Positions 5,521-33,173 of a stretch of 40,000 nucleotides of DNA are shown here, one piece after another. The DNA is taken from the NCBI RefSeq assembly GCF_900107455.1, contig NZ_FNQB01000004.1:280193-320192 (forward strand). Reading direction: 5' to 3'. The notes under the pieces are model-generated. The model was not told where the DNA came from. It saw nothing but the letters and a program-made list of their open reading frames with translations, and did no database searches. The translations under genes and the position numbers were made by a program. The stretch comes from Asanoa ishikariensis. GTDB lineage: Bacteria > Actinomycetota > Actinomycetes > Mycobacteriales > Micromonosporaceae. Within the stretch, counting starts at the first letter, position 1. Every line of letters begins with the position of its first letter.

Positions 5521-5523
5521 GTC

Positions 5524-11809: not shown

Positions 11810-11842
11810 GTCCGGGCGCACGCGCGACGCGTACGCCCGGAC
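11810..11842. terminator. Hairpin between the convergent modification and restriction operons (candidate bidirectional terminator)
   Basis: gtccgggcgcacgcg-cga-cgcgtacgcccggac gives 14 paired positions with one C/A mismatch and a 3-nt loop. It lies in the 55-bp gap between stop codons at 11796 (+) and 11852 (-). There is no U-tract, as is common in high-GC actinobacteria. Confidence 0.5.
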
Positions 11843-11851
11843 TCTGCCGGC

Positions 11852-19402: not shown

Positions 19403-22400
19403 CTGACTTCTCCAGCTCCGTCATGTCGCCCACGATCTGCTGCCACTCGGTGTGCACCTTGCGCACCTGTTCGGCCAGGTCCTCGCCCCGCCCGCCGGCG
19501 TGCTTCGCCGCCGCCTCCAGGCCGAACTGCAACCATGCGTCGCACTCCTTGAGGAAGGCCATCAGCGATCCCAGATCTGCACCCCGGTCTCGGACAGCCG
19601 TGGTGATCTGGATCCGTTTCCACTCGTTGTCCTCGGCATTTTCCAGTCGTTCGAGGTCCCGTCGCACCTGCTCGATGACCTGGGAGTTTCGACCGCGTAC
19701 GGCCTTGAGCTTCGCAGGGAAGCCCGCCACAAGGTCCTCACCACCGGGCAGCAGACCCGTGGCCTTGGCCTCCTTGAACGCCTGGTTGACCGCGTCCAGG
19801 GTCTCACTCACGTTCACGCCGGCGGGGATCCACCCGGATAGTTGTTCGCTGATGACGCGCAGAGCACTGTTCTGTTGTTCCACGAGTTCGTCGAACTTTG
19901 TGAGTGGCGCGTTCGCGTCCCGATACCACTTGACTGCTTCCGACTTCGCGATGGACCAATCTGCGGCCGCCTGCCGGATGAGTGGCATGATGCGGGCGGC
20001 ATCGAGGATTCGGGCGTTGAGGCCGCTCGTGCCCTGGCGCGCGCCCAGTAGTTGGCGCAGGTCCGCCACCATCGCGGGCCGGGCGGACCGGTGCTTGGTA
20101 AGGGCGGTGTTCCAGCGGTCCGACCGTATCGCGGCGTCGCCGAGTTCCCAGGTGATGCCCTCGTCGAAAGCCGCGGCGACGAGCTCGGTGTCCTTCATGC
20201 CCGGCCATGCGCGGCCGGCCAGGGCGGCGCCCATCAGAGACACTCGAAGCGCGGCGACCAGCCGGTCGTCCTCCGCGCTGCGAACGCGTAGCACGGCTGC
20301 GATGACGTCAGGCTGGTGCAGTTCGGCGAGGCGGGCGAGCCGCGGCAGAGCCGATTCGTTTCCGGGGGCGTCGGCCTTTGCTTGGAGGGTCAGCAGATGT
20401 TCGAAGAAGACCGCATTGTGCTGGTTCCGAACGAAACGAATCGGAGCGCCCGCGCTTTGCGCCTCTCCTGCGGCGTTCTCGATCGAAACCACCGATGAAG
20501 CGTTTGGCCATGCGGTCTTTTTGATGTCCGCTCCTGGTTCGGCCATCAGCGGCGTGCTCCAGTCGCAACGGCTCATTACCGCCGTACCGACGATTTGACG
20601 GATCCTCATAGCCGCGTTCTGTTCCAGCGGCTCGCGCCCGGCCGCCCACTCCAGAACGGATTTCACGTTGGCCTGCAACGATCTCGTCCAGTTTGCCCTG
20701 TGATCATTCGGCTTCTTGGGCGGCAGTCGTGGTGGTTCGTCGTCCAACTGCTCGAGAACTCGGCGCCCGGCGACATTGAGTTCAGGGATGGCGAAGGCCT
20801 CGTGGATACCGGAAGCCAGGTTAATCACCTCGGCGGGAGCACCGCCCCAAAACTCCAGCATGACCGTCCGGCGGGCAGAGTCGACCGCATCCAGTTTTTC
20901 AATCTCGACCGCGACGAAAGGCGAGAGCGGATCCTCGCCGCGCGCCAACGGGAACTGCTCCTGGAAACGACTACCCGGAAAACGTCTGTCGGCCAGGTCC
21001 TCTGCGTCCTCGAGCACCGGACGAATCACCCGGCCGATGATCCGGCGAGGGTTGAAAGTGTCTAGTTCGCCCCGGGCGGGGGTGCTCCGAATAGCTCGCC
21101 GAAGCGCGTGCCAGTTGAAGGGGAATAAGCCGTGCCCGCTTGGGGAGACACCGAACGCCTCATGACAGCTGTCGCGGAACTTGCAGTCGACGCACGCGTT
21201 CGGCACTTCGGCGTTGTAGGCGACGCCGGCGGCTTCCAACCGGTCTACCCCGATGCGCGCGGCGTTCAAGTATCGCCCGACGAAGTCCTCGGTTTGCCTT
21301 CGTCCCTCCGTGTCCGCGTCGAAGTCGGTGTCGAGGTCGTAGACGTACGGGGTGGCTGCCTCGATTCGGGTGACGACGGTCTTGGTGAGCGTGAGGTAGT
21401 AACCCGACGTGATTGCCATCAGCGTCCGGACCGGTGCATAGATTTGCCGTCCGTCGCGAACACCTGCTTCGATCAGGACCTCAAGCAGGTCCTGCTGCAA
21501 ACCTTGGATGACCGCGAAGTCCTCGATCAAGAGGACGAGTTCCTTGCCCTGCCGCTGATACTCCTCGCGAATTGTCAGCATGGCGTCCTGGAGCCGGCCG
21601 CCGAGCTTGAACACCTGCTGCACCGCGGTGGAGAGATTTTCAGTGATCAGGTCCGCCGCCGCAGTCTGCAACTCCGGCCGACTCATGATCAGAGTGAGTA
21701 GTGAACGGACCCGCTGGGCGGCCTCGCTGACGTCGCTAATGTGCGGCAGGTCCTCTGGGGTGAACTGGGTGGGCCGGTCAGACTCGCCGTCGCCTCGGTC
21801 ATTGAGCAGGCTCGCGGCGAGGCGTGGGATCAGTGATCCGGGGTCGTCCGTTAGATGGTGCCCGACAGTCACGTCGCGGAGCACCTCAGCCAGCTTGCCC
21901 TGACTCACCAAAGCCCTGCGGGACGGGTCGGAGCCGGGTTGCGCGCCTGTGATCGCCTCGGCTAGCGCGAACAGCAAGTGTCGCTGCAAGGCCTTCTCGT
22001 CCATACCGCTGGCGAGATCGTCGACCTGGTTGCGCAATTGGGTGAGCTTTTCGCTATGGATGTCGCTGCGTTCAAGCAGGATCCGAACGAGCGCCCGTAG
22101 ACTGGTGCTGGCCTTGGGGATATGGATGATTACCCGGTGGTCGACAGGCATCCGGCTGGTGCGTTCGTGGACCCATCGCACGAGGTGCGATTTCCCGGTG
22201 CCGGACTCGCCAATCACCGGCATGAGCAAGGCGCCGTTCCCCGGCGAGCGGTTCAAGAAGTCTTGCAGTACATCCTCCTCAGTCACCACCGCCCCAGCCA
22301 CGCCCTCGAGCAACTGCGGATCACGCCGCCGGATGCGCAGCGGCGCATGGGTGGCCAAGAAGACAGCGGTGGACGGGCTGACGGCCTCGGTACTCAGCGT

Positions 22401-22451
22401 CGAGATCGCGGTGGAGACCGTCCAGCAGACCCTCTCATCCAGGTCAGACAT
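19395..22451 (-). CDS. Large P-loop NTPase (about 1018 aa); DpdH-position candidate
   Basis: Track ORF 19395..22529, with preferred ATG 22451 (MSDLDERV...) overlapping the upstream stop by 8 nt. Walker A VIGESGTGKSHLV, Walker B-like LVLLIEDFAVIQG, Cys/His cluster CVDCKFRDSCH (nt about 21161-21205). Confidence 0.6.
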   Translation of the reverse strand: MSDLDERVCWTVSTAISTLSTEAVSPSTAVFLATHAPLRIRRRDPQLLEGVAGAVVTEEDVLQDFLNRSPGNGALLMPVIGESGTGKSHLVRWVHERTSRMPVDHRVIIHIPKASTSLRALVRILLERSDIHSEKLTQLRNQVDDLASGMDEKALQRHLLFALAEAITGAQPGSDPSRRALVSQGKLAEVLRDVTVGHHLTDDPGSLIPRLAASLLNDRGDGESDRPTQFTPEDLPHISDVSEAAQRVRSLLTLIMSRPELQTAAADLITENLSTAVQQVFKLGGRLQDAMLTIREEYQRQGKELVLLIEDFAVIQGLQQDLLEVLIEAGVRDGRQIYAPVRTLMAITSGYYLTLTKTVVTRIEAATPYVYDLDTDFDADTEGRRQTEDFVGRYLNAARIGVDRLEAAGVAYNAEVPNACVDCKFRDSCHEAFGVSPSGHGLFPFNWHALRRAIRSTPARGELDTFNPRRIIGRVIRPVLEDAEDLADRRFPGSRFQEQFPLARGEDPLSPFVAVEIEKLDAVDSARRTVMLEFWGGAPAEVINLASGIHEAFAIPELNVAGRRVLEQLDDEPPRLPPKKPNDHRANWTRSLQANVKSVLEWAAGREPLEQNAAMRIRQIVGTAVMSRCDWSTPLMAEPGADIKKTAWPNASSVVSIENAAGEAQSAGAPIRFVRNQHNAVFFEHLLTLQAKADAPGNESALPRLARLAELHQPDVIAAVLRVRSAEDDRLVAALRVSLMGAALAGRAWPGMKDTELVAAAFDEGITWELGDAAIRSDRWNTALTKHRSARPAMVADLRQLLGARQGTSGLNARILDAARIMPLIRQAAADWSIAKSEAVKWYRDANAPLTKFDELVEQQNSALRVISEQLSGWIPAGVNVSETLDAVNQAFKEAKATGLLPGGEDLVAGFPAKLKAVRGRNSQVIEQVRRDLERLENAEDNEWKRIQITTAVRDRGADLGSLMAFLKECDAWLQFGLEAAAKHAGGRGEDLAEQVRKVHTEWQQIVGDMTELEKSGE

Positions 22452-23364
22452 CGGTGACGTCTCCAATCTCGACATCGGCGAACAGCCCGATACCGCCAGG
22501 TGCTGCAGGATCGAGGAATTGCATTTCATTGCTGGCGTCGGAAGAGGTGGTCAGCTTCAACCACCCGCCCTCGCGGCCCCGCTGTAGCGCGAACGCCAGG
22601 CTGTCCGCCACCTTCCGAGGCCCAACGGGGAGGCCTAACGCCACGCTGAACGCGCCGCCGGGAAAAACTGGAAGGGCGTGCAGCAGGCCGGCAACGAACG
22701 TGGGAGCGTCGAGTTTGGTGCCCGGTTTCCACATTCCGCGGACGGCTCCCCGGACCGCCCGGGTGCAGTCTGGGACCAATCCCGATGTTCCGTCATCGAA
22801 TGGCAGCAATAGCGGTTCCGCGAACCCCAGTGCGGGTGCCCAGTACGTAAAGAGGTTCCACCGCTCTTTATTCTGGAGAGGGTTGCCGAACTCGATGTCC
22901 AAAGCCTTGTATTGCTCTGCATTGAACGTTTTTGTGCTGACCGGATCCAGTTGGCTTCCTCGGGTGAGGAACCAGCTAAGGGCCCGTATGAGGTCCTTGC
23001 CGTTGGTCTGAGACGAGGGGTCGTCGACGACCTCCTTAGGCGTGACGCGAGTAAGCACACGCCCGCGGACGATGTCGTAAAAGCCGGCGATGTCATCTCC
23101 GTCGATGTCGTCGGTGAGCGCGATGACCTCGTCGTCCACAGCCACGAGGCCGAGCGCCACGGCTGTGTTCAAAGCCTTCTCGAAGATGCGCTGGCCGTCG
23201 TCCAGTCGCTCGGGTTCCTTCGTCGTGGCGAAGAGGGTGGGCGGGCTGAGCATGGCCTTGGCCTCGACCAGCCGCTGCTTGCGGCCCGGCTGAACGGCCA
23301 GATGCCGGACGAGCGCCCAGAGTGGCCGCGGCAGCGACGATTCAACGTTGATTAGGGCTACCAT
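22444..23364 (-). CDS. 306-aa protein of unknown function; DpdG-position candidate
   Basis: C-terminal part of track ORF 22444..23817. ATG 23364 (MVALINVESSLPRPLW...) overlaps the RecQ-like gene stop (TAG 23358-23360) by 7 nt. The upstream 151 codons are Arg/Pro-rich and overlap the neighbouring gene, so they are discounted. Confidence 0.5.
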   Translation of the reverse strand: MVALINVESSLPRPLWALVRHLAVQPGRKQRLVEAKAMLSPPTLFATTKEPERLDDGQRIFEKALNTAVALGLVAVDDEVIALTDDIDGDDIAGFYDIVRGRVLTRVTPKEVVDDPSSQTNGKDLIRALSWFLTRGSQLDPVSTKTFNAEQYKALDIEFGNPLQNKERWNLFTYWAPALGFAEPLLLPFDDGTSGLVPDCTRAVRGAVRGMWKPGTKLDAPTFVAGLLHALPVFPGGAFSVALGLPVGPRKVADSLAFALQRGREGGWLKLTTSSDASNEMQFLDPAAPGGIGLFADVEIGDVTDV

Positions 23365-25907
23365 GCGGGGTCCTTCGAGAGGATGTCGAGCGGGATTGCC
23401 TTGTTCATGTATCTCAGCGGTGTTCCGGGACGGTGCGGATCGGGCAGAGTCGCTGGGTGTACAAGGTAAGTGGGCGCCTCCATGCCAAGCCGCTCTACTA
23501 CAGCTTCTGGCAGGGACTCGGTGGTCTCGTCGAGAACCCAGACAAGCGCGCTCTCGTACATGCCCAGCAGGCTCGCGTCGCGATCCACGATCACGGGGTA
23601 GGGTGCGGCCCGGCGTTGTACCCGGCGCAGCAAGGGTTCTGACAGGCCAGGGCCACCCAGGACGCCACACCGCAGCCGGACGAGCTTTTCGAGCAAGTCG
23701 GGGAGCAGGTCGTCGAGATGCTCTCGCCGGCTCCAGTAGATGCTCAGCAGCGGACTGCCGCCACGATACCGGGCCAAGGGATCCGGGCGAGCGGGCCAGC
23801 GTGCGCTGGCTGGCCAAGGGAGCATCCCGCGTCGGCGCATTCCAGTCTGTTCGTCAGGTGCCCGGTGTTTCCGACAGTGGGGGCAACTGCGGCACGAGAG
23901 CCCAGTGGCCAAGGTGCCACCTTGCCACCTGAGCCGGTAGTACTCGGCGAGAATCTCTGACACGCAACGCTCGCCACGCAACAGGGATTTGAGCTGACGC
24001 AGGGCGGTCTGCTGTTGGTCGTGCACCACCTGACGTTGTGCAGTCAGCCGCTCCTTGAAGAAAAATTGGTTGTTGAGTTGGCCTTCGCGCTCACTGACCA
24101 CGCGGAGCACGGCCTGTTGGTCGACAGGCGATTCGCCGTCCTCGTCTTGGTCGCGTCGCCAGGCCGGAGCTTCCTGGCGGATCAGCCCCGCCTGCTCCAT
24201 CAGGTTGAGCAGGCGGACATTCCACTGGATGTTCCGGGCTGATTCGGCGCGCAGATAGGCTGGCAACTCCGCAAGATCGATCTCCAGCGTGGAATCCTCG
24301 GCCACCCGAGCCTTGGCGCGCATGCTCCGCCAGCGGACCCAGCCCAAGTCGTCACCGATCAGGGTCACTCGGCTGAGCCGCTCGGCCAAGTTCTTGTCCA
24401 CCGGTGCGGTGGCCATGTACGCGACGCACGCCCGCCCGTCCCGGCCGCCACGACCGACCTCCTGGTAGTAGCGGTCGATCGTCTCAGGCAAGCACGCGTG
24501 CACGACCGACCGGACGCTCGCCATATCCACGCCCAGACCGAACGCCGAGGTGCCGACAACGACGTCGAAGCGGGTGGCCGACTCATTCCCGGAGGCGTCC
24601 TCGCCGCGCCAGCCGTTGATCACGGTGCGCCGCTCAGCCTCACCGGAGTCCCCGGTCAGTTGAGTTACTCGGCCGAAACCGGCCTCGCGGAGCCGGCGTG
24701 CCCAGTCTGTGGCATCTTGGCGCGTGGTGGTGTAGAGGACCAGCGGCCGCGGCAGCGCGTTGATCGCCTCCATGACCGCGCTGTCCCGCGCATCCTGATC
24801 GGTGAAGTCGTCGACGAAGTAAATGGGCTCGGCCCGAGTGTGCGAGGCCCAGACCAACTCCACCGGGCTCGGCTTCCCGAAAGTCTCCCTGAGGGTGTGG
24901 ACCTGCGAGGCGGTGAGGGTGGCGCTCATCGCGATGGTCACCACCTGGCGCCCCTCCGGCGCAACCCTTAGCCACGACCGGCGCTTAGCCGCGATGGCCT
25001 GAAACTCAGGCCGGAAGTCGTGGCCCCACTGCTCGACGATGTGTGCCTCGTCAATGATCAGGTGGGTCAAATGACCAGCCCGCGCGGCAGCTTCCAACGC
25101 AAAACTCAGGCCGGTGGTCACAGCCTCCGGCGCCGCGATCACCATCCCTTGCTGGCCAGTACGGATGTCCTGCCGGATCGTCTCCTTCACAGCCTTGTCA
25201 AGGCTGCCGGTGTATGCGAACGCCCGTGTCGCGGCAGTCTTGTCACCGCGTTGGATAAGGCGACGGCGCAGTCGGCGCTCCATGTCCAAGGCTAGGACCA
25301 CGGTCGGCACAACCATGACCGCGACACCACCATTTCGGATTGCCGGCAGCACGGTCGCCCACGCGACCTCGGTCTTGCCCTCACCCGTCGGCAGGCAGGC
25401 GATCACGGTGCCACCGGCCGGCGCAGTGGCCAAGGTACGAGCGGCCTCTCGCTGTCCGTACGAGGAGTAATTGCCGAAGCCGAGCGCCTCGGTCCAGAAG
25501 GGATCAGCTGGCAGATCGCGCTCACGGCCAGCGACTCCAGCGTAAACGCGCGACAAATCGTCCTCGGCGGCTGCATCAGGGCTCGGTGAGGGCGACCAGG
25601 GTTCGCCGCCAATGCGTAGGCGTTCCCCGGTCGGAAGGACTGTGCAGCGGGCCGATTTCCACTGCTGCTCAGTCGGTAGGCGAGGACCTGTCGGCACAAC
25701 CAACGAGTCCTGGACGCCGGTGCGGGCCTGATGCTCGAGCAGAACCTGCCTGGTCAACGCGACGACGTCACGCCAGCGCGCTGCGCCGGTTTCCAGGCTG
25801 GCCACGGCGTCACGCAGCCGGCGACAGGTGCCGGCCGTGGGAATGTGCTCGACGTCGGGCCACGCTTGCCAGATCGACTGTGCGGTCGTCCAGTCGTCAT
25901 GCTGCAC
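23358..25907 (-). CDS. dpdF: RecQ-like DEAD/DEAH superfamily 2 helicase, DpdF-like
   Basis: Track ORF 23358..25907. Motif I CLPTGEGKTEV, motif II LIIDEAHIVEQWGHDFRPEF (RecQ-type), MSATLT, and VVGTSAFGLGVDMASVRSVVHACLPETIDRYYQEVGRGGRDG. Downstream CRSCPHCRKH zinc-like motif. Confidence 0.8.
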   Translation of the reverse strand: MQHDDWTTAQSIWQAWPDVEHIPTAGTCRRLRDAVASLETGAARWRDVVALTRQVLLEHQARTGVQDSLVVPTGPRLPTEQQWKSARCTVLPTGERLRIGGEPWSPSPSPDAAAEDDLSRVYAGVAGRERDLPADPFWTEALGFGNYSSYGQREAARTLATAPAGGTVIACLPTGEGKTEVAWATVLPAIRNGGVAVMVVPTVVLALDMERRLRRRLIQRGDKTAATRAFAYTGSLDKAVKETIRQDIRTGQQGMVIAAPEAVTTGLSFALEAAARAGHLTHLIIDEAHIVEQWGHDFRPEFQAIAAKRRSWLRVAPEGRQVVTIAMSATLTASQVHTLRETFGKPSPVELVWASHTRAEPIYFVDDFTDQDARDSAVMEAINALPRPLVLYTTTRQDATDWARRLREAGFGRVTQLTGDSGEAERRTVINGWRGEDASGNESATRFDVVVGTSAFGLGVDMASVRSVVHACLPETIDRYYQEVGRGGRDGRACVAYMATAPVDKNLAERLSRVTLIGDDLGWVRWRSMRAKARVAEDSTLEIDLAELPAYLRAESARNIQWNVRLLNLMEQAGLIRQEAPAWRRDQDEDGESPVDQQAVLRVVSEREGQLNNQFFFKERLTAQRQVVHDQQQTALRQLKSLLRGERCVSEILAEYYRLRWQGGTLATGLSCRSCPHCRKHRAPDEQTGMRRRGMLPWPASARWPARPDPLARYRGGSPLLSIYWSRREHLDDLLPDLLEKLVRLRCGVLGGPGLSEPLLRRVQRRAAPYPVIVDRDASLLGMYESALVWVLDETTESLPEAVVERLGMEAPTYLVHPATLPDPHRPGTPLRYMNKAIPLDILSKDPAW

Positions 25908-28900
25908 GATCGATCCCCCATTGGTTGCCCCCCACGATGCACGTCGCCGCGACTACGCGAATCTTCGGGCGAAGAAGCCCGTTAACTAGGAGGTTTGTCA
26001 TGTCCACGTTCGTCACATAGCTCTCGGTGTCGGAGAGCAGCCGTCCGGCGGCCTTCCGAGCCAATGCTTGCGCCCGCTGGATGGCCAGTTTGCGACGGCC
26101 TTCGGCGTGAGCGGCAGTAGTCTTCGCCTGGAGGTCTTCACTGCTCGCGAGGAGTTCGCGAGCAGTCGCTTCGGCGGTCCGCGCGGCGTCCGCGAAGCGC
26201 GCGAGGCCGCCGAAGCTGTTCAGGACCGGCGTGGCGCGATCGGGGTTCAAGTTGATGTCTCGCGCCCCGTACGGCTGGTTCAGCCACCTGAGGAGGTGTT
26301 CATCGCTAACTCGGGTGCCTGCGGTGTCTAGCCAGACCCGTTCGATGTAAGGCGGTAGCAGCAGGTCGGCGTGCCGCCGAATCGCGTGCTGGGCTTCCTC
26401 GCCGGCATCGGGGTGGTCGAGGGCCGACGTCAAGTCGGCCTCTACCACGACCTCGAATCCAAAGTGCACAGTCTCGTGTGGCTGGCCAGGGCGCCACAGT
26501 GCTGAGGCTTGTCCTCGGTCGTCGATCGCGATGACGGCGCTGAGTAGTTCGATTAGCGGATTGCCGATTCGGAAGAGTCGGACGCCACCATCGTGTAGAT
26601 CGGTGGTGTGCAGGCTGACATTGCGATTGAACGCTCCAGTCATACTGCCGGCCGGGAGGTGGCGGCGTCCGTGCGCCAGAACCAGCGGGGAGATCAACGG
26701 TGGAGCGCTGCTGTTGAATCCGAACGTCACCACGGCTTCGCCGGGTGGTTCGACGGTGAGACGGACACCGCCGCTGGTGTGGGAGGTCAGGGCTCGCAAA
26801 GCACGCTCCTGGCGCTGCCAGCCCAGCTCCATCCGGGCGATCGCCTTGGCGACCCGCAACCCGTTCGGGTCTTCGTGGATCGATTCGAGGGCATCCATCG
26901 CCTCGATCTCGATCCGCTCCTTGCGCAGTTCGGCGACGACCTGGTCCGTCCGCGCGGTTATCGCGGTCGGCCCGTTGAGTACGGCCGCCTCCCAAGCTTG
27001 CTCTTGAATCTGGTCCAGTCGGTCTTGCAACGCCGACAGAGAGCCGTCGAACGCGCCTACCGCGTCTACTAGGAAGTCGCGCCAGGCGGAGTTGAAAGAC
27101 TCGTCGGAGCCACCACCCGACTCGCAGTGTTGGGCAGCGGGTTGTTTGCCGCTCCACGACCAGCCAGCGAACCGGTCAACCCGCCCTAGCCTTTGTTCCA
27201 GCCGGTTCGGCGACCAGGGCAACCGAAGGTGGACGACGACGTCGGCCTCTTGCAGGTTGACCCCGTCCTCTCCGCTGTCGTCCACGATCAGCAGCGCCGA
27301 CCCGGTTCCTAGGCGCCAGGTCGAGAGGTCGGCCGCGACTTGGTCGCCAGCTCGGCTGCCGGTGTGACGCAGGATGGTCCATGGGGTCCGCCGCGTGAGC
27401 AACGCAGCGAGGTCGTCCGCCATCCGCCCGGGGCCGCAGAAAACGACCGGTCGCTGGGCTCCCTTCAGCACTCGGCCAAGTTCGTTGAGAGCCAGCGCGG
27501 GGCTGGTCGTCATCTGGGTTAGCTCGTCCAACGTCTGTTTTTCCGTTGACAACACAGGAACATCGCGAAGTACCGCTCGCTCGGACACGGAGAGTCCGGC
27601 GCTACTCGCCGAGGCCGCAATCCCGTCGATCCGCCACCGAAGCGCATCGATCAGGTCCCCGGAAAGTTCGTCGACTCGGCTGGCGAGGATCGCAAGCACC
27701 TGGCCGTAACGGCGGGCAAGCCTCTCGTCGTCGTGGTCCACCAGCCATTGGGCGACTCGCTGCTGCCACTCCAGCAGGGCTTGTTGTGCAAGTAGCGCGC
27801 GGCGACTGCCCAGCGCGAGGCTTGCTGGCCGGCTACGACTGGTGACCTCGAAGGGCACCAGGTCTTCGTCCCGTGTCGACAGCACGTCGGTGCGGCGGTG
27901 CCGGATCATCCGGCGGTGCATCCGGTACGTCTCGCTGATGTGTGCGCGCAGCAAGTCCAACGCCTCGGCCAACTTTGGCCGCTCCGTTTCGCTGTGCAGG
28001 TCGCCGAACTCGGTGAGGAATTTCCGGATGCCGATCGAAAGCTCGTCGAAGGTCTCGTCGCCGGGAATAATCGTGGCGATTTCATCGAGCACCTGCGGCA
28101 GCAACATCTCAAATTCTGCGTTCAGGCCGTGAACGGCATTGGCGAGTAGTCTTCGATCCTCGAAATGGACGCGGAACCGATCCAGATCGGACCACTTGTA
28201 AAGATGTGGATCGAGCAGATGCAGAAGGCTGAGGTGCAATTCCGGGCGAGCGGCGGCGGGCGTCGCGGAGAGCAGGATGAGCCGGGGTACTGAATGCGCC
28301 AAGGCCACCAACTGCGGGTAGGGTGCCTGCCGAGGGTCGCCGGTCCGGGTGAGGTTGTGCACCTCGTCGATCACGAGAAGATCGAAGCCGTGGTACTCGC
28401 GCCAGCGGTCGGGAGCCTCGTGTTGCCCGATCCGGATGTCCGCGTTCGGGAAGTCGTCGATGAAGAACTTGGTGCGCAACTCGGCCTTCCACTGCCGGCG
28501 CAGAAGATCCGGAGTGAGCACAGCGATCCGGGCCGACGGATGGTCGATGAGGTGCTGCCGGATGACCAGCCCTGCCTCGATGGTCTTGCCCAAACCAACC
28601 TCATCGGCCAGCACGTACCGCTGGACAGGATCAGTTAGGACGGTCAGGGCTGTGTCGACTTGGTGGGGATAGATCTCGATGGCTGATGAAACCAGAGCCG
28701 AGAAGTTCGCCGAGGCGGCACGTTGCCACATCAGGCTGTACAACATGGGAATCCGGGCGTCCCGAAAGTATGGTGACTCGTTCGCGCCGGCCGCGAGCAC
28801 CTCCACCGGTGACTGGACCGGCCGGTTCCACCGCACGTAGAGGTTTGTGGCCGAGATCTGTAGGTCGAACTCTCGGTTGGGTAGACGCACCGCGTAGTGG

Positions 28901-29208
28901 TGCGGACCGCCACCTACGACGCGGCCGGCGCGCCACGCGCCGCTGCCTTCGTGGTCGGGCCAGTACACCCGAGTCTGTATCGGAAGAATGACGACAGAAC
29001 ACTGCTGGGCGGGAAGTTTCCATTCGCGAGCGACGGGTCGAGCGGCGGACTCGAAGGCCTCGACCAGCAGATGATCCCCGTCGTGTGCGCGAACTTTGGC
29101 CACGCCTGGAATGGCTGGGTGCTGTACAAATTGCCCCATGGGATGGCTGGTGAGGGGCGATGGCACCTGCGGAGCGTAGCGAGGATCGTAAGCGTTGATG
29201 ATAGGCAT
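25897..29208 (-). CDS. dpdE: SNF2/RapA-like helicase (1103 aa), first gene of the restriction operon, DpdE-like
   Basis: Track ORF 25897..29208. YPHQ, LADEVGLGKTIEAG (motif I), LLVIDEVHNL (motif II), LLSATP, LPWSPNRLEQRLGRVDRF (motif VI). ATG 29208 is preceded by GAGGAG. Confidence 0.8.
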   Translation of the reverse strand: MPIINAYDPRYAPQVPSPLTSHPMGQFVQHPAIPGVAKVRAHDGDHLLVEAFESAARPVAREWKLPAQQCSVVILPIQTRVYWPDHEGSGAWRAGRVVGGGPHHYAVRLPNREFDLQISATNLYVRWNRPVQSPVEVLAAGANESPYFRDARIPMLYSLMWQRAASANFSALVSSAIEIYPHQVDTALTVLTDPVQRYVLADEVGLGKTIEAGLVIRQHLIDHPSARIAVLTPDLLRRQWKAELRTKFFIDDFPNADIRIGQHEAPDRWREYHGFDLLVIDEVHNLTRTGDPRQAPYPQLVALAHSVPRLILLSATPAAARPELHLSLLHLLDPHLYKWSDLDRFRVHFEDRRLLANAVHGLNAEFEMLLPQVLDEIATIIPGDETFDELSIGIRKFLTEFGDLHSETERPKLAEALDLLRAHISETYRMHRRMIRHRRTDVLSTRDEDLVPFEVTSRSRPASLALGSRRALLAQQALLEWQQRVAQWLVDHDDERLARRYGQVLAILASRVDELSGDLIDALRWRIDGIAASASSAGLSVSERAVLRDVPVLSTEKQTLDELTQMTTSPALALNELGRVLKGAQRPVVFCGPGRMADDLAALLTRRTPWTILRHTGSRAGDQVAADLSTWRLGTGSALLIVDDSGEDGVNLQEADVVVHLRLPWSPNRLEQRLGRVDRFAGWSWSGKQPAAQHCESGGGSDESFNSAWRDFLVDAVGAFDGSLSALQDRLDQIQEQAWEAAVLNGPTAITARTDQVVAELRKERIEIEAMDALESIHEDPNGLRVAKAIARMELGWQRQERALRALTSHTSGGVRLTVEPPGEAVVTFGFNSSAPPLISPLVLAHGRRHLPAGSMTGAFNRNVSLHTTDLHDGGVRLFRIGNPLIELLSAVIAIDDRGQASALWRPGQPHETVHFGFEVVVEADLTSALDHPDAGEEAQHAIRRHADLLLPPYIERVWLDTAGTRVSDEHLLRWLNQPYGARDINLNPDRATPVLNSFGGLARFADAARTAEATARELLASSEDLQAKTTAAHAEGRRKLAIQRAQALARKAAGRLLSDTESYVTNVDMTNLLVNGLLRPKIRVVAATCIVGGNQWGIDRAA

Positions 29209-29584
29209 AACGTCTCCTCGCTGGCTATCTAACGTCTTCGTAAGGTCGGCATGTCTTCACAAAAATGCGCCCGAAAGTGCAGGCGTGTCGCGCGGGTTGC
29301 TGGCCGCAACCTGTGCATGCCACCGTGATCGCGGTGCTCGACCGCCTGGCGGTCGAAGCCTAATGGGGTGAGGCAAATAGCAAAGCGTTGGTGTCGCAGG
29401 ATTTCATCGGCTTGCGGAAGCGAATCCGCCTTCGATTTCCCATTTATCGGTATAGGAGTAGCGTTGGCTGTGCTCGCCGGTTGATCCGAAAGGGTTGGGT
29501 TCCGTCCGTCGCGCACAGCACGACAACGGGTTGACTGTGGATGAGCCATCCCTTGGGGGCCCTCGTCTTCGGGGGTCGGGATTC
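29209..29584. promoter_or_regulatory. Divergent control region between the restriction operon (-) and the methyltransferase/kinase pair (+)
   Basis: 376 bp with no convincing ORF, locally AT-richer (for example ttcacaaaaatgcg and tttcccatttatcggtatagg). Contains an 8-bp direct repeat taacgtct (29208-29215 and 29230-29237) and a small inverted repeat ggttgc-N5-gcaacc. Promoter positions themselves are not resolved. Confidence 0.4.
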
Positions 29585-31501
29585 ATGGAACCACTGTCGG
29601 AGAACACTGTCAACAGACAAAGTCTGGACGCCCTGTGTACACTCCGCCGTGTGGAACGGAGAGCAAGGGTCACGGCAGCGGACATCGCCCGCCTTGCGGG
29701 AGTCGGGCGGGCCGCCGTCACCAACTGGCGGAAGCGGCATGCGACGTTCCCGACGCCGGTGGGCGGTACTGCCGCGTCCCCGCACTTCGATCTCGAACAG
29801 GTTGAGGTATGGCTGGCTGACCAGGGCAAACTGCCGGCAGTCGCTGACGAGGATCGAATCTGGCGCAAGCTGCTCGCGAGCGCGGATGATCCGTCCGAAG
29901 CCTTGGCTGCCGCAGGCGAACACCTCCACGGTGTACGCCCTTTGCCCTATTCCGAGTTGGAGTTGGAACTCGCCGACCTTGCGAGAAGACGTGAGCCGCA
30001 GGGCGCGTTCGATGAACTCTGGCGCCGGTTCGTCGGGCTGCCTGGACAGCGTTCGATCACCACACCGGACGCTCTAGCCGACCTGATGGTCACCCTCGCC
30101 CACGTCTCCGGCAGTACAGTCCTGGACCCTGCTTGCGGGAACGGGAGTCTGCTGCGTGCGGCAATCAGGGCCGGCGCCACAACGGTCTATGGCCAAGACA
30201 ACGACGCCGCCGCGACTCGTCTTGCTCGACTCTGGCTCGCGATCAACAATCGGCCAGGGACGGTCGCTACCGACGACTCCCTACGACGGGATGCCTTTCC
30301 CGGCCTCAACGTCGATGCGGTGGTGGCAAACCTGCCGTTCGGCCTTACCAACTGGGGGCATGAGGCGCTCAGCCACGACGCGCGATGGGTCTATGGACTT
30401 CCGCCACGTACCGAACCTGAACTCGCTTGGGTGCAACATGCGCTCGCTCATCTGAAACCCGGGAGGCGTGCGGTACTGCTGATGCCGCCTTCGGCGGCGA
30501 GTCGGCGAGCGGGTCGGCGCATCCGCTCCGAGTTGCTGCGGCGGGGAGCGATTCGTGCGGTAGTCGCGTTGCCGCCGGGAGCTGCCGCGCCTCACGCGAT
30601 CAGCCTGCACCTTTGGGTGCTGCAGCGCACGACCCAGGCCGCTCAAGAGGTCTTATTCGTCGATGCGACCGCGGCAAGCATCGAGTCGGTCACCCGGCGC
30701 ATCGCGGAATCCGTGGAGGGCGCCGACGACGACATGACATACGCGGCCTCGGTGATCGATCTACTGGACGAAGAAGTCGATCTTACGCCCGGCCGGCACG
30801 GCTTGGCAGATGCGGCTGGGGCTGCGTCGGCGAAGACGCTGCACGAGAGCCGGAAACGGCTGGTCGGTATGGTTAACTCGCTTCACGACCTCTTGCCCGA
30901 CTTGCCTGATGCGGACGTCGCTGCCGGCCCGCTTCCCGTGATCGGAGTCGCTGAGTTGGTTCGCACGGGAAGTCTTCATCTGCTTGGTCCGGTCCGTGTC
31001 GGCCCGAGTGATTTGGGTCAGGAGACAGATGTCCCGGTATTGACCAGCGATGACGTCGTAGCGGGCCACAGTGCATCCGGACGCTCGGAAGGGCCGCTTC
31101 ATCCGCAGATCCCTCTGCTGCCAGGCGATGTGGTCGTGCCTACGATCGGCTCGGGCATAGTGGCACGCGTCATCACCGCAGAGCCAGCGGTGCTCGGCCG
31201 CAATCTGCTTCTCCTGCGTTGCACGCCGGATGAACTTGACCCATGGTTCCTCGCGGGCCACTTACGAACATCGACCAACGAACGGCAGACTGCTAGTTCC
31301 TCCGGATCCCAACGTTACGACGTCCGCAAGGCCCAGATCCCACGCATCCCCATTGAGCAGCAGCGGCGGCACGGTGCCGCGTTCCAGAAACTCCAGCAAT
31401 TCGACGTCACCGTCCGAGCGGCCGCGATGCTCAGTGGCGAGCTGTCCCGCCACGCCGCTGACGGCTTGGCCTATGGATTCCTGACGCTTGGCGACATCTG
31501 A
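29585..31501 (+). CDS. N6-adenine DNA methyltransferase (gamma class) with an N-terminal HTH and a C-terminal HsdS-like target-recognition domain
   Basis: Track ORF 29495..31501, preferred ATG 29585 (MEPLSENTV). HTH: VTAADIARLAGVGRAAVTNWRKRHATFPTP. Motif I VLDPACGNGSLL, motif IV VVANLPFGLTNWG. C-terminal roughly 230 aa is TRD-like (VPVLTSDDV...LLPGDVVVP...LDPWFLAGHLRTS...IPRIPIEQQRRHG). No nuclease motif is evident. Confidence 0.85.
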   Translation: MEPLSENTVNRQSLDALCTLRRVERRARVTAADIARLAGVGRAAVTNWRKRHATFPTPVGGTAASPHFDLEQVEVWLADQGKLPAVADEDRIWRKLLASADDPSEALAAAGEHLHGVRPLPYSELELELADLARRREPQGAFDELWRRFVGLPGQRSITTPDALADLMVTLAHVSGSTVLDPACGNGSLLRAAIRAGATTVYGQDNDAAATRLARLWLAINNRPGTVATDDSLRRDAFPGLNVDAVVANLPFGLTNWGHEALSHDARWVYGLPPRTEPELAWVQHALAHLKPGRRAVLLMPPSAASRRAGRRIRSELLRRGAIRAVVALPPGAAAPHAISLHLWVLQRTTQAAQEVLFVDATAASIESVTRRIAESVEGADDDMTYAASVIDLLDEEVDLTPGRHGLADAAGAASAKTLHESRKRLVGMVNSLHDLLPDLPDADVAAGPLPVIGVAELVRTGSLHLLGPVRVGPSDLGQETDVPVLTSDDVVAGHSASGRSEGPLHPQIPLLPGDVVVPTIGSGIVARVITAEPAVLGRNLLLLRCTPDELDPWFLAGHLRTSTNERQTASSSGSQRYDVRKAQIPRIPIEQQRRHGAAFQKLQQFDVTVRAAAMLSGELSRHAADGLAYGFLTLGDI

Positions 31502-33173
31502 ACGGCCCGATGACATCGATCGCCTGAAATGCGCGATGATGGCGGATGCCGAGCAATGGATCGATCATCTATCCACTAGGGCCGTTGCTCGGCCAGCGGA
31601 CAGAATGGGGGTCGCGGTGGCGGGGCGAACGCTCGGCGACGGGCGGTACGAACTGCAAAGCCCGCTCGCGCGTGGAGGGATGGGCGAGGTTTGGCTCGGC
31701 CGCGACACGCGACTTGACCGGGAGATGGCGGTCAAGTTCATCTGGGCCCGGCACGAAGCGCTGGAAGAAGAGCAGCTCCGCCGGTTTTTTCGGGAAGCGA
31801 AGATCACAGCACGGCTGGAGCACCCCGGGGTGCCGGCCGTGTACGACACCGGTGTTGACCAGGACGGTCGCCCGTACATGGTTATGCAACGGGTCCACGG
31901 CATGAGCGTGGCAGACCTCGTCTCCGAGCATGACCCACTGCCGATCAGTTGGGCAGCCACCATCGCCGCGCAAGCATGCGCCGTCCTCGTCGCCGCGCAC
32001 GCCGCATCACTGGTGCATCGTGATCTCAAGCCCAGCAACCTCATGCTCGAACCGAACGGTTGTGTGAAGGTCCTCGACTTCGGCCTGGCCGTGGCACCGA
32101 CCCTGGCTGACTTCTCTCGGATCACCGTGACCGGCCAGCCGATCGGCACCCCGGCGTACATGGCGCCGGAGCAGGTCGAAGCGGGCCTCAGCGAGCCCGC
32201 TACGGACTTGTACGCCCTCGGCTGCACGCTTCACGAGATGATTGCGGGCGACCAAGTCTTCATCGGTCCGACCGCATACTCTGTGATGACGCAGCAGGTG
32301 AGGGACGCGCCGCCGCGACTGCGGTCGTTGCGCTCAGATATCCCCGCGGCGCTGGAGAAACTGGTCCTTGATCTGCTGGAGAAGCGGCCAGAGGACCGCC
32401 CAGCCGGCGCCGACGAGGTTCACCAGCGCCTGCTGCCCTTCGCCAAGAACCTCCCTTCGCTTCCTGGGGTTCTCGAAGCACCAGGTCGACCTAGTCCAGT
32501 CCGTATGTACGCCGAGTTGGTCACTCGAGTGCCAGGCACGGCGCGGGAGTCAACGCCATCCGCTCCTGTGCAAGGCCGGCGTGAACCGAAAACTGCCGAG
32601 CCCGCTGTTACCCGCCAAGCTCTGACGAAAGTGCGCGGCGACGTCGGGCAGTTGATTCGTGACACGAGGTTCAGCGAGGCGGCTGAGATCCTCGCCGACG
32701 CCGAAAACACCGGTCGAGAGGCCTTCGGCGCCACCGACAACGAGGTGCTACGCATCCGCTACGACCTGGCTAACGCGCTGTTTGAGGGCGGTGACTACCG
32801 CCGCGCCGCACCCGTCTACCAAGCGCTTGCTGCTGATCTGCTGGCCGGGGGAGCTGGCTCATCCGACATGGTGTTCGACTGTCGGGTCAGGGCGGCCATC
32901 TGTCAGGCTATGACGGGCGAGGCACGGCAAGCCTTAGAACAACTCGACGGGCTACTTGCCTACCGGCGAGGTTCCTACGGCGCGGACGATCCCCGCACGC
33001 TGGAGCTTCGTAAACAAATCGCCCTGCTGCAGTTGCGGTCCGGCCAACATGACAGGGCCCAAAAGACGCTGACGAGCCTGCTCGATGACGTGCGCCGGTT
33101 GCCGGCCGGCACGGACCCAAGTCCAGCCGAGGTCGCAGATCTGCTCGCGTCCATTCGCTCCGAGAAGAACTAG
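31488..33173 (+). CDS. Hanks-type Ser/Thr protein kinase with a C-terminal TPR-like helical repeat region, no transmembrane segment
   Basis: Track ORF 31488..33173. Gly-loop ARGGMGEVW, MAVKFI (catalytic Lys), HRDLKPSNLML, DFGLA, GTPAYMAPEQ. C-terminal roughly 190 aa is helical-repeat. Start is ambiguous: TTG 31488 overlaps the methyltransferase stop by 14 nt; in-frame ATG candidates are at 31536 and 31605. Confidence 0.85.
   Translation: MATSERPDDIDRLKCAMMADAEQWIDHLSTRAVARPADRMGVAVAGRTLGDGRYELQSPLARGGMGEVWLGRDTRLDREMAVKFIWARHEALEEEQLRRFFREAKITARLEHPGVPAVYDTGVDQDGRPYMVMQRVHGMSVADLVSEHDPLPISWAATIAAQACAVLVAAHAASLVHRDLKPSNLMLEPNGCVKVLDFGLAVAPTLADFSRITVTGQPIGTPAYMAPEQVEAGLSEPATDLYALGCTLHEMIAGDQVFIGPTAYSVMTQQVRDAPPRLRSLRSDIPAALEKLVLDLLEKRPEDRPAGADEVHQRLLPFAKNLPSLPGVLEAPGRPSPVRMYAELVTRVPGTARESTPSAPVQGRREPKTAEPAVTRQALTKVRGDVGQLIRDTRFSEAAEILADAENTGREAFGATDNEVLRIRYDLANALFEGGDYRRAAPVYQALAADLLAGGAGSSDMVFDCRVRAAICQAMTGEARQALEQLDGLLAYRRGSYGADDPRTLELRKQIALLQLRSGQHDRAQKTLTSLLDDVRRLPAGTDPSPAEVADLLASIRSEKN

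What the first reader, a model, noticed from the sequence alone, without database searches (positions are those of the whole stretch)
29585..33173. HTH-methyltransferase-TRD fusion coupled to a TPR Ser/Thr kinase: candidate uncharacterised two-gene epigenetic/defence module
A single polypeptide combines a DNA-binding HTH, a gamma-class N6-adenine methyltransferase (VLDPACGNGSLL / NLPFG) and an HsdS-like recognition domain. There is no associated nuclease. Immediately downstream, possibly overlapping by 14 nt, is a soluble Hanks kinase with all catalytic motifs intact and a TPR-like sensor tail. The pair sits inside the low-GC island, divergent from the Dpd restriction operon across a shared 376-bp control region. 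Methyltransferase-plus-kinase pairing recalls PglX/PglW of the Pgl/BREX type 2 system, and to my recollection the kinase- and methylase-containing MADS system. Here, however, there is no PglY/PglZ-like ATPase or phosphatase and both proteins are much smaller. Three possibilities are a minimal kinase-gated methylation or abortive-infection system, a regulator of the neighbouring Dpd restriction genes, or an orphan methylase with an unrelated kinase.
Basis: inference. Interest (0 to 1): 0.65.

Follow-up and report, generated by a model that had tools for sequence, protein, structure and literature searches.

The report
Methylase–kinase pair flanking defence cassettes
Two intact neighbouring genes, a DNA adenine methylase with its own DNA-binding head and sequence-reading tail and a soluble sensor kinase, recur together in actinobacterial genomes. 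There they lie either side by side or at the two ends of several different anti-phage restriction systems, so they look like a shared, uncharacterised accessory pair and not a chance adjacency.

Summary
Gene 1 starts at GTG 29651, not ATG 29585, and ends at 31501. It encodes a 616-aa single-chain type-I-like m6A methyltransferase: winged HTH, HsdM-type catalytic domain (DPACGNG, NLPF) and half-HsdS recognition domain. Gene 2 starts at ATG 31605 or GTG 31617 and ends at 33173. It encodes a soluble Hanks kinase with a TPR tail. The proposed 14-nt overlap is not supported.

Both genes have the composition of the Dpd island. The whole block recurs in Polymorphospora at 71–84% protein identity, with a different right flank.

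In 49 related loci (L002–L050), 32 carry a co-oriented Hanks kinase within 10 kb downstream of the methylase; 1 carries one upstream.

Orthologues of both genes sit at the two ends of complete DISARM class 1 and type I R-M operons. They also lie next to BREX type 2. In Thermobifida and Amycolatopsis the kinase follows DrmC.

The pair is therefore a conserved accessory of modification-based defence operons. Here it is the form with no cassette between the genes, beside Dpd, and it is not Dpd-specific. It is not a member of MADS, Pgl or DISARM.

The mechanism is inferred: an autoregulated methylase plus an infection-sensing kinase. No description was found in my literature searches.

The parts
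29209..29650 (.). Intergenic region (442 bp) between divergent dpdE and the methylase gene
   Evidence: ORF map. The start of the methylase is fixed at 29651 by orthologue alignment.
29608..29615 (+). Invariant TGTCAACA box, 36–43 nt upstream of the GTG start. Its reverse strand reads TGTTGACA.
   Evidence: Invariant in the 8-genome alignment A1. It sits at this position in about 43 of 52 loci, whatever gene lies upstream. Only one copy matches in the window.
29635..29643 (+). GTGTACACT: an 8-bp palindrome (GTGTACAC) overlapping a -10-like TACACT, 7 nt before the GTG. This suggests a leaderless mRNA and a possible operator.
   Evidence: GTACACT is invariant in A1 and present in Polymorphospora. 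The promoter and operator roles are inferred, not shown.
29651..31501 (+). Methylase gene, 616 aa: HTH + HsdM-type N6-adenine methyltransferase + half-HsdS
29651..29821 (+). Winged helix-turn-helix, residues 1–57
   Evidence: AF2 secondary structure. PADLOC mad1 4.3e-6. Weak HTH_17/HTH_23. Highly conserved in the family.
30068..30670 (+). Rossmann catalytic domain, residues 140–340, with DPACGNG (motif I) and NLPF (motif IV)
   Evidence: Pfam N6_Mtase. PDB HsdM hits. Motifs.
30806..31471 (+). Half-HsdS: long helix 386–414, recognition domain 430–565, long helix 568–607
   Evidence: Profile hit to HsdS 5ybb_D and 3okg_A at E 1.3e-7. AF2 model. Full-length Foldseek match to 7eew_A. Not hypervariable: 39–68% identity to the window per 25-residue block.
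31502..31604 (+). Spacer between the two genes, with no terminator-like site
31605..33173 (+). Kinase gene, 522 aa from ATG 31605 (518 aa if GTG 31617): soluble Hanks Ser/Thr kinase with TPR tail
31647..32420 (+). Kinase catalytic domain (K44, HRDLKPSN 138, DFG 158, APE 187)
   Evidence: Pfam Pkinase 1.6e-40. Motifs.
32661..33083 (+). TPR repeats (sensor or interaction tail). They evolve faster than the kinase domain.
   Evidence: TPR_12, TPR_19 and TPR_6. Identity to orthologues is 62% and 50% in the tail against 80% and 71% in the kinase domain.
4816..29208 (.). Neighbouring Dpd island: QueC, QueE, FolE2, a weakly DpdC-like ORF, DpdB, DpdA and DpdB on +; DpdD, J, (I), H, G, F and E on -
   Evidence: NCBIfam equivalogs. 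PADLOC.

Best explanation
**What is shown**
- The two genes form a conserved accessory pair found in actinobacterial defence operons that tell self from foreign DNA by DNA modification.
- Gene 1 encodes a single-chain type-I-like m6A methyltransferase.
- Gene 2 encodes a soluble Hanks kinase with a TPR tail. That tail diverges faster than the catalytic domain.
- In relatives the methylase is the first gene and the kinase the last gene of operons. The middle of those operons is an interchangeable restriction cassette: DISARM class 1 or type I R-M. The pair also lies next to BREX type 2.
- In the window the pair is the form with no cassette between the genes. It sits at the edge of a Dpd island and was inherited with that island.

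**What is inferred**
- Because the methylase carries half of an HsdS subunit, it should act as a dimer on a symmetric two-part target. Its recognition domain is conserved across genera, so the same mark is probably written in all of them.
- It is probably made from a leaderless transcript, driven by a conserved promoter that its own HTH may autoregulate.
- The methylase marks host DNA and sets its own level.
- The kinase is the signalling arm. Its TPR tail is triggered by infection, either by a phage protein or by the methylase sitting on unmethylated DNA. The kinase then phosphorylates host or neighbouring defence proteins, either to arrest the cell or to switch the adjacent restriction system.
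- This parallels the methylase/specificity/kinase core of MADS and PglX/PglW of BREX type 2.
For: **Domains:**

**Linkage**
- Of the 49 genome-scan loci (L002–L050), 32 have a same-strand Hanks kinase within 10 kb downstream (about 459 kb scanned). Only 1 has one upstream in about 414 kb, and that one is the TPR orthologue (which also tallies L001).
- At least 18 contigs under 600 kb hold both a top-120 methylase homologue and a top-120 kinase homologue. The closest methylases go with the closest kinases.

**Side-by-side pairs in different surroundings**
- Window and Polymorphospora: Dpd.
- Paractinoplanes bogorensis: PglW-PglX-PglY follow the pair.
- P. maris: order reversed, placed after DrmA-DrmB.

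**Pair at the two ends of a cassette**
- Actinoplanes missouriensis: methylase-DrmD-DrmMI-DrmA-DrmB-DrmC-kinase-UvrD.
- Actinoplanes NPDC026619: methylase-HsdM-HsdS-HsdR-kinase. The methylase and HsdM overlap by 4 nt, and the kinase starts 10 nt after HsdR.
- Eight of nine type I loci show the same layout.

**Beyond the family:** the kinase also follows DrmC in Thermobifida and Amycolatopsis.

**Composition:** methylase GC3 is below DUF4352 in 40 of 40 loci and below the left flank in 27 of 28. It resembles the cassette genes. In the window both genes have island-like GC3.

**Island inherited as a unit:** DpdE, DpdF, DpdH, methylase and kinase are 77, 75, 84, 71 and 75% identical to Polymorphospora, which has a different right flank.

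**Conserved promoter boxes:**

**No terminator-like site between the genes:**
Against: - No experiment supports any of this. Methylation activity, kinase substrates and a phage phenotype are all untested.
- Every cassette already has its own methylase or modification pathway, so the role of an extra methylase is unclear.
- A recognition domain conserved across genera is unusual for a restriction-linked methylase. It fits a regulatory or housekeeping mark equally well.
- Motif IV is non-canonical: NLPF here and HPPF in 17 of 42 relatives.
- The nine DISARM-type loci have no kinase within 10 kb. In one of them it was found 15.6 kb away. For three others, and for the BREX-flanked L035, it is only inferred from a shared contig.
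- Conserved genes at the ends of a variable region could simply be recombination anchors of a hotspot.
- The TGTCAACA box may be the -35 of the divergent DUF4352 promoter and not an operator.
- Many Micromonospora loci are closely related, so the locus counts overstate the number of independent events.
Confidence: 0.5

Rival explanations
1. **Leftover ends.** The pair is what remains of a larger operon of DISARM or type I R-M type after the core was deleted or swapped out. The two genes now act independently: a solitary methylase, and a stand-alone abortive-infection kinase of the PD-T4-6 or Stk2 kind.
For: - In most relatives a cassette of 6–16 kb lies between the two genes.
- The kinase family is primarily linked to DISARM, including genomes where no methylase was seen nearby.
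- The kinase hits PD-T4-6 models strongly (4e-88).
Against: - The side-by-side arrangement has persisted with both reading frames intact across 60–76% protein identity. It occurs in at least three lineages with different neighbours and once with reversed order.
- The PD-T4-6 models also hit ordinary Hanks kinases, so that match is not specific.
- There is no sign of decay in either gene.
Confidence: 0.25
2. **Hotspot anchors.** The methylase and kinase are resident genes that merely flank a site where defence cassettes are exchanged by homologous recombination. They have no role in defence.
For: - Constant ends with a variable middle is the classic hotspot pattern. The MADS preprint (bioRxiv 10.1101/2023.03.30.534895) describes such a hotspot between pheT and a histidine kinase.
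- The left-flank genes are also conserved in Micromonospora.
- The methylase recognition domain is conserved.
Against: - GC3 of the methylase and kinases is cassette-like, not flank-like.
- In the window and in Polymorphospora the pair lies inside a mobile low-GC island with different outer flanks.
- The pair changes its order and its neighbours.
- Start and stop codons overlap with cassette genes.
- Three unrelated kinase types recur at these loci.
- One M. chokoriensis chromosome carries two methylase copies.
Confidence: 0.1
3. **Dedicated Dpd regulator.** The HTH-methylase controls the divergent dpdE–K restriction operon through the shared intergenic region, and the kinase modulates it.
For: - The arrangement is divergent across 442 bp.
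- The same arrangement is kept in Polymorphospora.
- From my own knowledge, some HTH-bearing methylases of the SsoII type regulate a divergent restriction gene.
Against: - None of the 49 related genome-scan loci contains Dpd.
- The conserved promoter boxes travel with the methylase whatever lies upstream.
- The two Dpd cases are one island lineage and so are not independent.
- From my own knowledge, the described Dpd clusters such as that of Salmonella Montevideo work without such genes.
Confidence: 0.07
4. **Reduced member of MADS or BREX type 2 (Pgl).**
For: Domain-level hits to mad1, mad2, mad5 and mad6, and weakly to NCBIfam MAD2, MAD6 and PglW.
Against: - All scores are far below the curated cut-offs: MAD2 28.7 against 720, MAD6 124 against 460, PglW 59 against 990.
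- No MAD7, MAD8, PglY or PglZ matched any of the eight largest island proteins scanned. The ten scanned gave other assignments.
- In P. bogorensis the pair co-exists with a genuine PglW and PglX.
Confidence: 0.03

Closest known systems
Single-chain 'intact' type I methyltransferase of Vibrio vulnificus YJ016 (PDB 7EEW), and type I M2S methyltransferases in general (EcoKI, EcoR124I, PacII)
   Same: - HsdM-type gamma-class catalytic domain.
- An HsdS-like recognition domain flanked by long helices, all in one roughly 610-aa chain.
- 7EEW is the best structural match, aligned over the full length.
- Profile hits to both HsdM and HsdS chains.
   Different: - A winged HTH replaces the HsdM_N domain.
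- No HsdR partner is present in the window.
- Sequence identity is only about 16–22%.
- Motif IV is NLPF.
- The recognition domain is conserved across genera instead of shuffled.
MADS (methylation-associated defence system, mad1–8; bioRxiv 10.1101/2023.03.30.534895)
   Same: It combines an HTH regulator (mad1), an N6 methylase (mad2), a specificity subunit (mad5) and a Hanks kinase (mad6). The window methylase hits mad1, mad2 and mad5 in that order, and the kinase hits mad6.
   Different: - Here the first three are fused into one protein.
- mad3, mad4, mad7 and mad8 were not found among the island proteins scanned. MAD6, MAD7 and MAD8 are mandatory in the authors' model.
- Scores are far below the NCBIfam cut-offs.
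BREX type 2 / Pgl (PglX methylase + PglW kinase + PglY + PglZ)
   Same: A methylase and a Ser/Thr kinase are both required in an actinobacterial, modification-based defence system. In P. bogorensis and Actinoplanes TBRC 11911 the pair, or its methylase, physically abuts a type 2 BREX locus.
   Different: - PglX is an MmeI/Eco57I-type enzyme of about 1170 aa in the locus seen here.
- PglW is a 1400–1600-aa protein with a NERD nuclease and tandem kinase domains (PMC12839542).
- There is no PglY or PglZ here.
- The proteins are not orthologous.
DISARM class 1 (DrmD, DrmMI, DrmA, DrmB, DrmC)
   Same: Orthologues of the kinase directly follow DrmC in Actinoplanes, Thermobifida and Amycolatopsis. 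Orthologues of the methylase directly precede DrmD in nine of the related loci: four Actinoplanes and five Micromonospora.
   Different: None of the five DISARM core genes is in the window. Neither gene is part of the published DISARM definition.
HTH-bearing, self-regulating methyltransferases of type II systems (for example M.SsoII, M.EcoRII; from my own knowledge)
   Same: An N-terminal HTH is fused to a methylase. The gene is divergent from a restriction operon. A short palindrome overlaps the likely -10 of its own promoter.
   Different: Those are C5-cytosine enzymes. Operator binding here is untested. The conserved boxes may belong partly to the divergent promoter.
Stand-alone or embedded abortive-infection effectors (PD-T4-6 and Stk2 kinases; PrrC inside the EcoprrI type I locus; from my own knowledge)
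   Same: A soluble Hanks kinase in a defence locus, with strong PD-T4-6 model hits. Like PrrC, it is embedded in type I R-M operons in relatives.
   Different: It has a TPR tail. No trigger or substrate is known. The PD-T4-6 models are not specific.

Membership tests
Type I-like N6-adenine DNA methyltransferase (HsdM/HsdS) | Gamma-class AdoMet-dependent catalytic domain with motif I and motif IV | tested here: met
   - N6_Mtase 1.2e-36.
- DPACGNG and NLPF present. NLPF is a variant of NPPF/Y.
- HsdM chains are the best PDB sequence hits.
Type I-like N6-adenine DNA methyltransferase (HsdM/HsdS) | HsdS-type target recognition domain with flanking conserved helices | tested here: met
   - Profile hit to HsdS 5ybb_D and 3okg_A at 1.3e-7.
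- AF2 helices 386–414 and 568–607 around a beta-rich domain.
- Full-length match to 7eew_A.
- Pfam Methylase_S itself is not hit.
Type I-like N6-adenine DNA methyltransferase (HsdM/HsdS) | HsdR restriction subunit encoded with it | tested here: not met
   No HsdR is in the window. In type I loci of relatives the HsdR belongs to a separate, complete HsdM-HsdS-HsdR set.
Type I-like N6-adenine DNA methyltransferase (HsdM/HsdS) | Methylates a specific DNA motif | not testable with these tools
   Needs a SMRT or Nanopore methylome, or an in vitro assay.
MADS | MAD6 kinase, MAD7 and MAD8 present (mandatory in the authors' model) | tested here: not met
   - The kinase matches mad6 only at domain level: 124 bits against the NCBIfam cut-off of 460.
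- No MAD7 or MAD8 match among the eight largest island proteins scanned with PADLOC and NCBIfam.
MADS | MAD2 methylase equivalog | tested here: not met
   NF047738 scores 28.7 bits against a cut-off of 720.
BREX type 2 / Pgl | PglX (MmeI/Eco57I-type methylase), PglW (NERD + kinases), PglY, PglZ | tested here: not met
   - The methylase is HsdM-type.
- PglW model scores 59 bits against 990.
- No PglY or PglZ in the window.
DISARM class 1 | DrmA, DrmB and DrmC with DrmD and DrmMI | tested here: not met
   The only Drm-model hits in the window are secondary helicase-domain matches by proteins that score far better as DpdE, DpdF or DpdJ. No DISARM model reaches its NCBIfam cut-off. The association is seen only in other genomes.
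Dpd system | Being one of DpdA–K or the preQ0 pathway | tested here: not met
   The neighbours DpdD–J and DpdA, DpdB, QueC, QueE and FolE2 pass the equivalog cut-offs. The methylase and kinase match no Dpd model.
Hanks-type Ser/Thr protein kinase | Catalytic Lys, HRDxKxxN, DFG, APE | tested here: met
   K44, HRDLKPSN at 138, DFG at 158, APE at 187. Pkinase 1.6e-40.
PD-T4-6 single-gene kinase defence | Specific membership, as opposed to a generic Hanks kinase | tested here: inconclusive
   Best PADLOC hit is 4.3e-88. However, unrelated kinases from the related loci hit the same models equally well.
Self-regulating HTH-methyltransferases | HTH binds an operator in its own promoter | not testable with these tools
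   The HTH is present. Conserved boxes and an 8-bp palindrome lie at -16 to -9. Binding needs EMSA or footprinting.

The most novel reading that the evidence does not exclude
The HTH-methylase and the TPR kinase may form a portable two-part chassis for interchangeable restriction cassettes. The methylase would read or write a family-wide m6A mark and control the operon promoter. The kinase would turn detection of unmethylated DNA or of phage proteins into phosphorylation. DISARM, type I R-M, BREX type 2, Druantia-like, type IIG and Dpd would then be swapped in as effectors. This would be a common controller shared by otherwise unrelated defence systems.
Probability: 0.2. Interest if true: 0.85.

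Novelty: new variant of a known kind. Interest (0 to 1): 0.6.

Why it matters
How large modification-based defence systems such as DISARM, BREX and Dpd sense infection and avoid self-damage is still poorly understood. A kinase is known to be needed in Pgl and MADS, but its role is unknown.

A small methylase–kinase pair shared across at least five kinds of such systems would give a compact, genetically tractable handle on that question, because it also occurs alone as two genes. It would further show that actinobacterial defence operons are built from a constant frame plus exchangeable cassettes.

If the two genes instead prove to be independent, or mere hotspot anchors, the finding is only a useful marker for locating defence islands in Micromonosporaceae.

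Tried and rejected
**Searches that gave nothing useful**
- The exact-sequence look-up of the window's methylase and of P0040 was not on record.
- The metagenome scan with the kinase returned only distant generic kinases at 28–39% identity.
- The viral-contig scan with the methylase profile found only one HTH-only match, so the family is not visibly phage-borne.
- The plasmid collection gave only distant methylase relatives (37–52% identity, partial coverage) in Nonomuraea and Streptomyces. Neither of the two hits whose regions I fetched, both Streptomyces, showed the pairing.
- Rfam found nothing in the intergenic region.
- The sigma-70 consensus scan did not call the conserved boxes. Short-repeat searches in the intergenic region were uninformative.
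- The cluster-member look-up gave no positional accessions, so adjacency in four metagenomic contigs could not be proved.
- One plasmid query was lost to a wrong reading frame.

**Ideas tested and dropped**
- Comparison of the sequences just after the methylase stop codon showed no shared recombination-site-like element at cassette junctions. An integron-like exchange mechanism is therefore not supported.
- ATG 29585 as the start, and the 14-nt overlap.
- A hypervariable recognition domain.
- Membership of MADS, Pgl or DISARM.

Full report
**What is in the window**

The window holds a lower-GC island from about 4.7 to 33.2 kb. Its GC is 0.62–0.67, against 0.72–0.76 outside.

The island carries a complete-looking Dpd system:
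- On the + strand: QueC, QueE, FolE2, a weakly DpdC-like ORF, DpdB, DpdA and a second DpdB.
- On the − strand: DpdD, DpdJ, a small ORF, DpdH, DpdG, DpdF and DpdE.
- Most of these pass the NCBIfam equivalog cut-offs.

The finding is the last two genes of the island. Both are on the + strand and divergent from dpdE. The island ends right after the kinase, where a high-GC3 aminopeptidase gene converges on it. GC3 is 0.92 for that gene, against 0.70 for the methylase and 0.75 for the kinase.

**The methylase**

Sequence evidence:
- Pfam N6_Mtase, E 1.2e-36.
- PADLOC 'Type I methyltransferase' PDLC03037, E 6e-95.
- HsdM chains are the best PDB sequence matches, for example PacII 7vru_A.
- Motif I is DPACGNG and motif IV is NLPF.

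An AlphaFold2 model built on 42 homologues has mean pLDDT 85. It shows, in order:
- a winged HTH (residues 1–57);
- a helical domain;
- the Rossmann fold (140–340);
- a long helix (386–414);
- a β-rich domain (430–565);
- a second long helix (568–607).

This is the layout of half an HsdS subunit. Two results support that reading. The family profile hits solved HsdS subunits over positions 493–607 at E 1.3e-7. The best structural match is the 610-aa single-chain 'intact MTase' of Vibrio vulnificus, 7eew_A, aligned over the whole length.

By analogy with half-HsdS proteins I infer a homodimer acting on a symmetric two-part site.

The recognition domain is not hypervariable. Identity to the window per 25-residue block is 39–68% across 48 relatives from several genera. 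This suggests one conserved specificity.

**Gene boundaries**

Upstream of the methylase start there is a non-coding element conserved across genera:
- an invariant TGTCAACA box;
- 22 nt downstream of it, GTGTACACT, which is an 8-bp palindrome overlapping a −10-like TACACT;
- 7 nt after that, the GTG start codon.

This is seen in the eight-genome alignment and in Polymorphospora. The box lies at this position in about 43 of 52 loci, whatever gene sits upstream.

The real start is GTG 29651, the same as the gene caller's 616-aa product. A −10 box 7 nt from the start codon suggests a leaderless mRNA, but that is inference.

The reverse strand of the first box reads TGTTGACA. It is also found upstream of the DUF4352 gene where that gene has moved elsewhere in the locus. 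The box may therefore serve the divergent promoter as well.

For the kinase, orthologues align only from ORF codon 33–41 onward. The gene caller uses ATG 31605, and orthologues would also fit GTG 31617 behind a GGGGG ribosome-binding site. Either start leaves a spacer of at least 103 nt with no terminator-like site. The 14-nt overlap is not supported.

**The kinase**

- Pkinase, E 1.6e-40, plus TPR repeats.
- K44, HRDLKPSN, DFG and APE are all present, and no membrane-like segment exists.
- The TPR tail diverges faster than the catalytic domain: 62% against 80% identity to the closest genome-scan orthologue, and 50% against 71% to the next.

**Is the pairing real?**

From the methylase side, a genome scan returned 49 loci in Micromonosporaceae (L002–L050):
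- 32 have a Hanks kinase domain on the same strand within 10 kb downstream, in about 459 kb scanned.
- Only 1 has one upstream, in about 414 kb scanned, and that one is the TPR orthologue itself.

From the kinase side, the top 120 homologues share a contig with a top-120 methylase homologue in at least 18 contigs under 600 kb. The closest kinases (64–76% identity) go with the closest methylases (58–69%).

**What surrounds the pair elsewhere**

Mapping a panel of neighbour proteins onto the loci, together with the Pfam and PADLOC annotation, gave the layouts below. The counts cover the 49 scan loci plus L001, 50 in all. They add to 44; the other six have an unknown or different downstream cassette, or too little sequence.

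| Layout | Loci |
|---|---|
| Methylase, then DrmD-DrmMI-DrmA (DISARM class 1) | 9 |
| Methylase-HsdM-HsdS-HsdR(-260 aa)-TPR kinase | 9 (kinase seen in 8) |
| Methylase, a short 354-aa kinase, a DrmD-like SNF2 and a 1641-aa type IIG enzyme | 15 |
| Methylase, then a 2083-aa kinase::DruE-like fusion and a DpdE-like SNF2 | 9 (checked in detail in one) |
| Methylase-TPR kinase-PglW-PglX-PglY | 1 |
| DrmA-DrmB-TPR kinase-methylase-UvrD | 1 |

Further details:
- In Actinoplanes missouriensis the DISARM operon continues DrmB-DrmC-TPR kinase-UvrD-GmrSD. The kinase starts 13 nt after DrmC.
- In Actinoplanes NPDC026619 the methylase and HsdM overlap by 4 nt, and the kinase starts 10 nt after HsdR.
- One further locus reads PglY-PglZ-BrxD-BrxHI-methylase.
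- Outside the family, kinases 54% identical to the window's follow DrmC and precede UvrD in Thermobifida and Amycolatopsis.

So the methylase is typically the first gene and the TPR kinase the last gene of operons whose middle is a swappable restriction cassette.

**Relation to Dpd**

None of the 49 genome-scan loci has Dpd. Polymorphospora sp. NPDC050346 has the window's exact arrangement. DpdE, DpdF, DpdH, the methylase and the kinase are 77, 75, 84, 71 and 75% identical to the window's, but the genes to the right differ.

This shows the whole island, pair included, moves or is inherited as one unit. It counts as one lineage, not independent evidence for a Dpd-specific role.

**Anchors or cargo?**

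Methylase GC3 is lower than that of the divergent DUF4352 gene in 40 of 40 loci, and lower than the further left flank in 27 of 28. It is similar to the cassette genes and the kinases. Several other points argue that the two genes are part of the mobile defence unit and not resident anchors:
- the changing outer flanks;
- the reversed order in one genome;
- the overlapping start and stop codons with cassette genes;
- the recurrence of three unrelated kinase types.

The anchor model is not excluded.

**How it most likely works**

Shown:
- domain make-up, intact motifs and co-orientation;
- conserved linkage and island-like composition;
- conserved promoter boxes.

Inferred:
- The methylase dimer writes a conserved m6A mark and, through its HTH, regulates its own leaderless promoter.
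- The TPR kinase is the sensing and signalling arm. It is triggered by a phage protein, or by the methylase engaged on unmethylated DNA.
- The kinase then phosphorylates host or defence proteins, either to arrest growth or to switch the neighbouring system.

I put 0.5 on the pair acting together as a defence accessory in this way. The rivals are:
- 0.25 on two independent leftovers of a larger operon;
- 0.10 on hotspot anchors;
- 0.07 on a Dpd-specific regulator;
- 0.03 on a reduced MADS or Pgl.

Caveats:
- Each cassette already has its own modification enzyme.
- Motif IV is non-canonical: NLPF here, and HPPF in 17 of 42 relatives.
- Many Micromonospora loci are close relatives, so they are not independent.

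**Comparison with known systems**

- The methylase is a member of the type I-like M·S class by fold and motifs, but it lacks an HsdR and carries an HTH instead of HsdM_N.
- The pair resembles the mad1/mad2/mad5/mad6 part of MADS at domain level. It fails that system's mandatory MAD7/MAD8 requirement and all NCBIfam cut-offs.
- It is not Pgl. PglX and PglW belong to different families, and they co-exist with the pair in one genome.
- It is not DISARM, although its relatives are DISARM-linked.
- Literature searches on MADS, DISARM, BREX, Dpd and kinases found no description of this pair.

**Verdict**

The adjacency is not a chance one.

The pair is a new variant of the methylase-plus-kinase theme. 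Its unusual modular placement at the two ends of different defence cassettes deserves a systematic census and a simple genetic test. Interest is 0.6.

Noticed in passing
Alignment A2, window methylase residues 227–230 (window 30329–30340): Motif IV is dimorphic in the family: NLPF in 25 of 42 sequences, including the window, and HPPF in 17 of 42. A histidine at the catalytic position is unusual for N6-adenine methyltransferases.
   Followed up: no
L020:12269-18520 and 18055-21510: In Micromonospora, a 2083-aa protein fuses an N-terminal Hanks kinase to a Druantia DruE-like helicase. It is followed by an SNF2 protein that scores 1694 bits on a PADLOC 'DpdE' model. About nine loci have this layout downstream of the methylase.
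   Followed up: partly
L053:4963-9898 (minus strand), and the equivalent region in most Micromonospora and Actinoplanes loci: A conserved divergent gene set lies next to the methylase: DUF4352, a roughly 200-aa protein, an RNase H-like 272-aa protein and an SMC-like 817-aa ATPase with weak mad3 and LmuB hits. Its GC3 is higher than that of the methylase. It is absent from the window.
   Followed up: partly
L057:10001-16158; L059:10001-16077; L061:10001-13673: The TPR kinase is followed by a UvrD-like helicase of about 700 aa downstream of DISARM DrmC. In two cases a GmrSD-type enzyme follows. This is seen in Actinoplanes, Thermobifida and Amycolatopsis. In Thermobifida no DrmD or DrmMI appears upstream of DrmA in the 10 kb shown.
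   Followed up: no
window 8265-9410 and 10645-11796; 7315-8268; 13798-14328; 18731-19402: The Dpd island has two DpdB paralogues around DpdA. The ORF at 7315 is only weakly DpdC/YaaA-like (E 0.0066). No QueD was recognised. Two small minus-strand ORFs, which might be DpdK and DpdI, remain unassigned.
   Followed up: partly
L042 position ~19786; L050 position ~12853 and 12149-12439: Where DUF4352 lies downstream of the kinase, a TGTTGACA box sits 60–90 nt upstream of it. L050 also carries a 5' fragment of a methylase gene on the opposite strand beside it. This suggests the methylase–DUF4352 promoter region was duplicated or moved as a block.
   Followed up: no
L053:11908-12617 (minus strand), and many Micromonospora loci: Two small overlapping ORFs of 133 and 103 aa on the opposite strand sit directly after the methylase stop codon. 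They are conserved at 62–100% identity in many loci and have no domain hit. They could be a toxin–antitoxin-like pair.
   Followed up: no
window 34502-38503 (minus strand): Just outside the island lies a 1333-aa ORF whose N-terminal half looks, by eye, like an adenylation/carrier-protein (NRPS-like) enzyme and whose C-terminal half is hydrophobic. No domain search was run. GC3 is 0.94, typical of the host.
   Followed up: no
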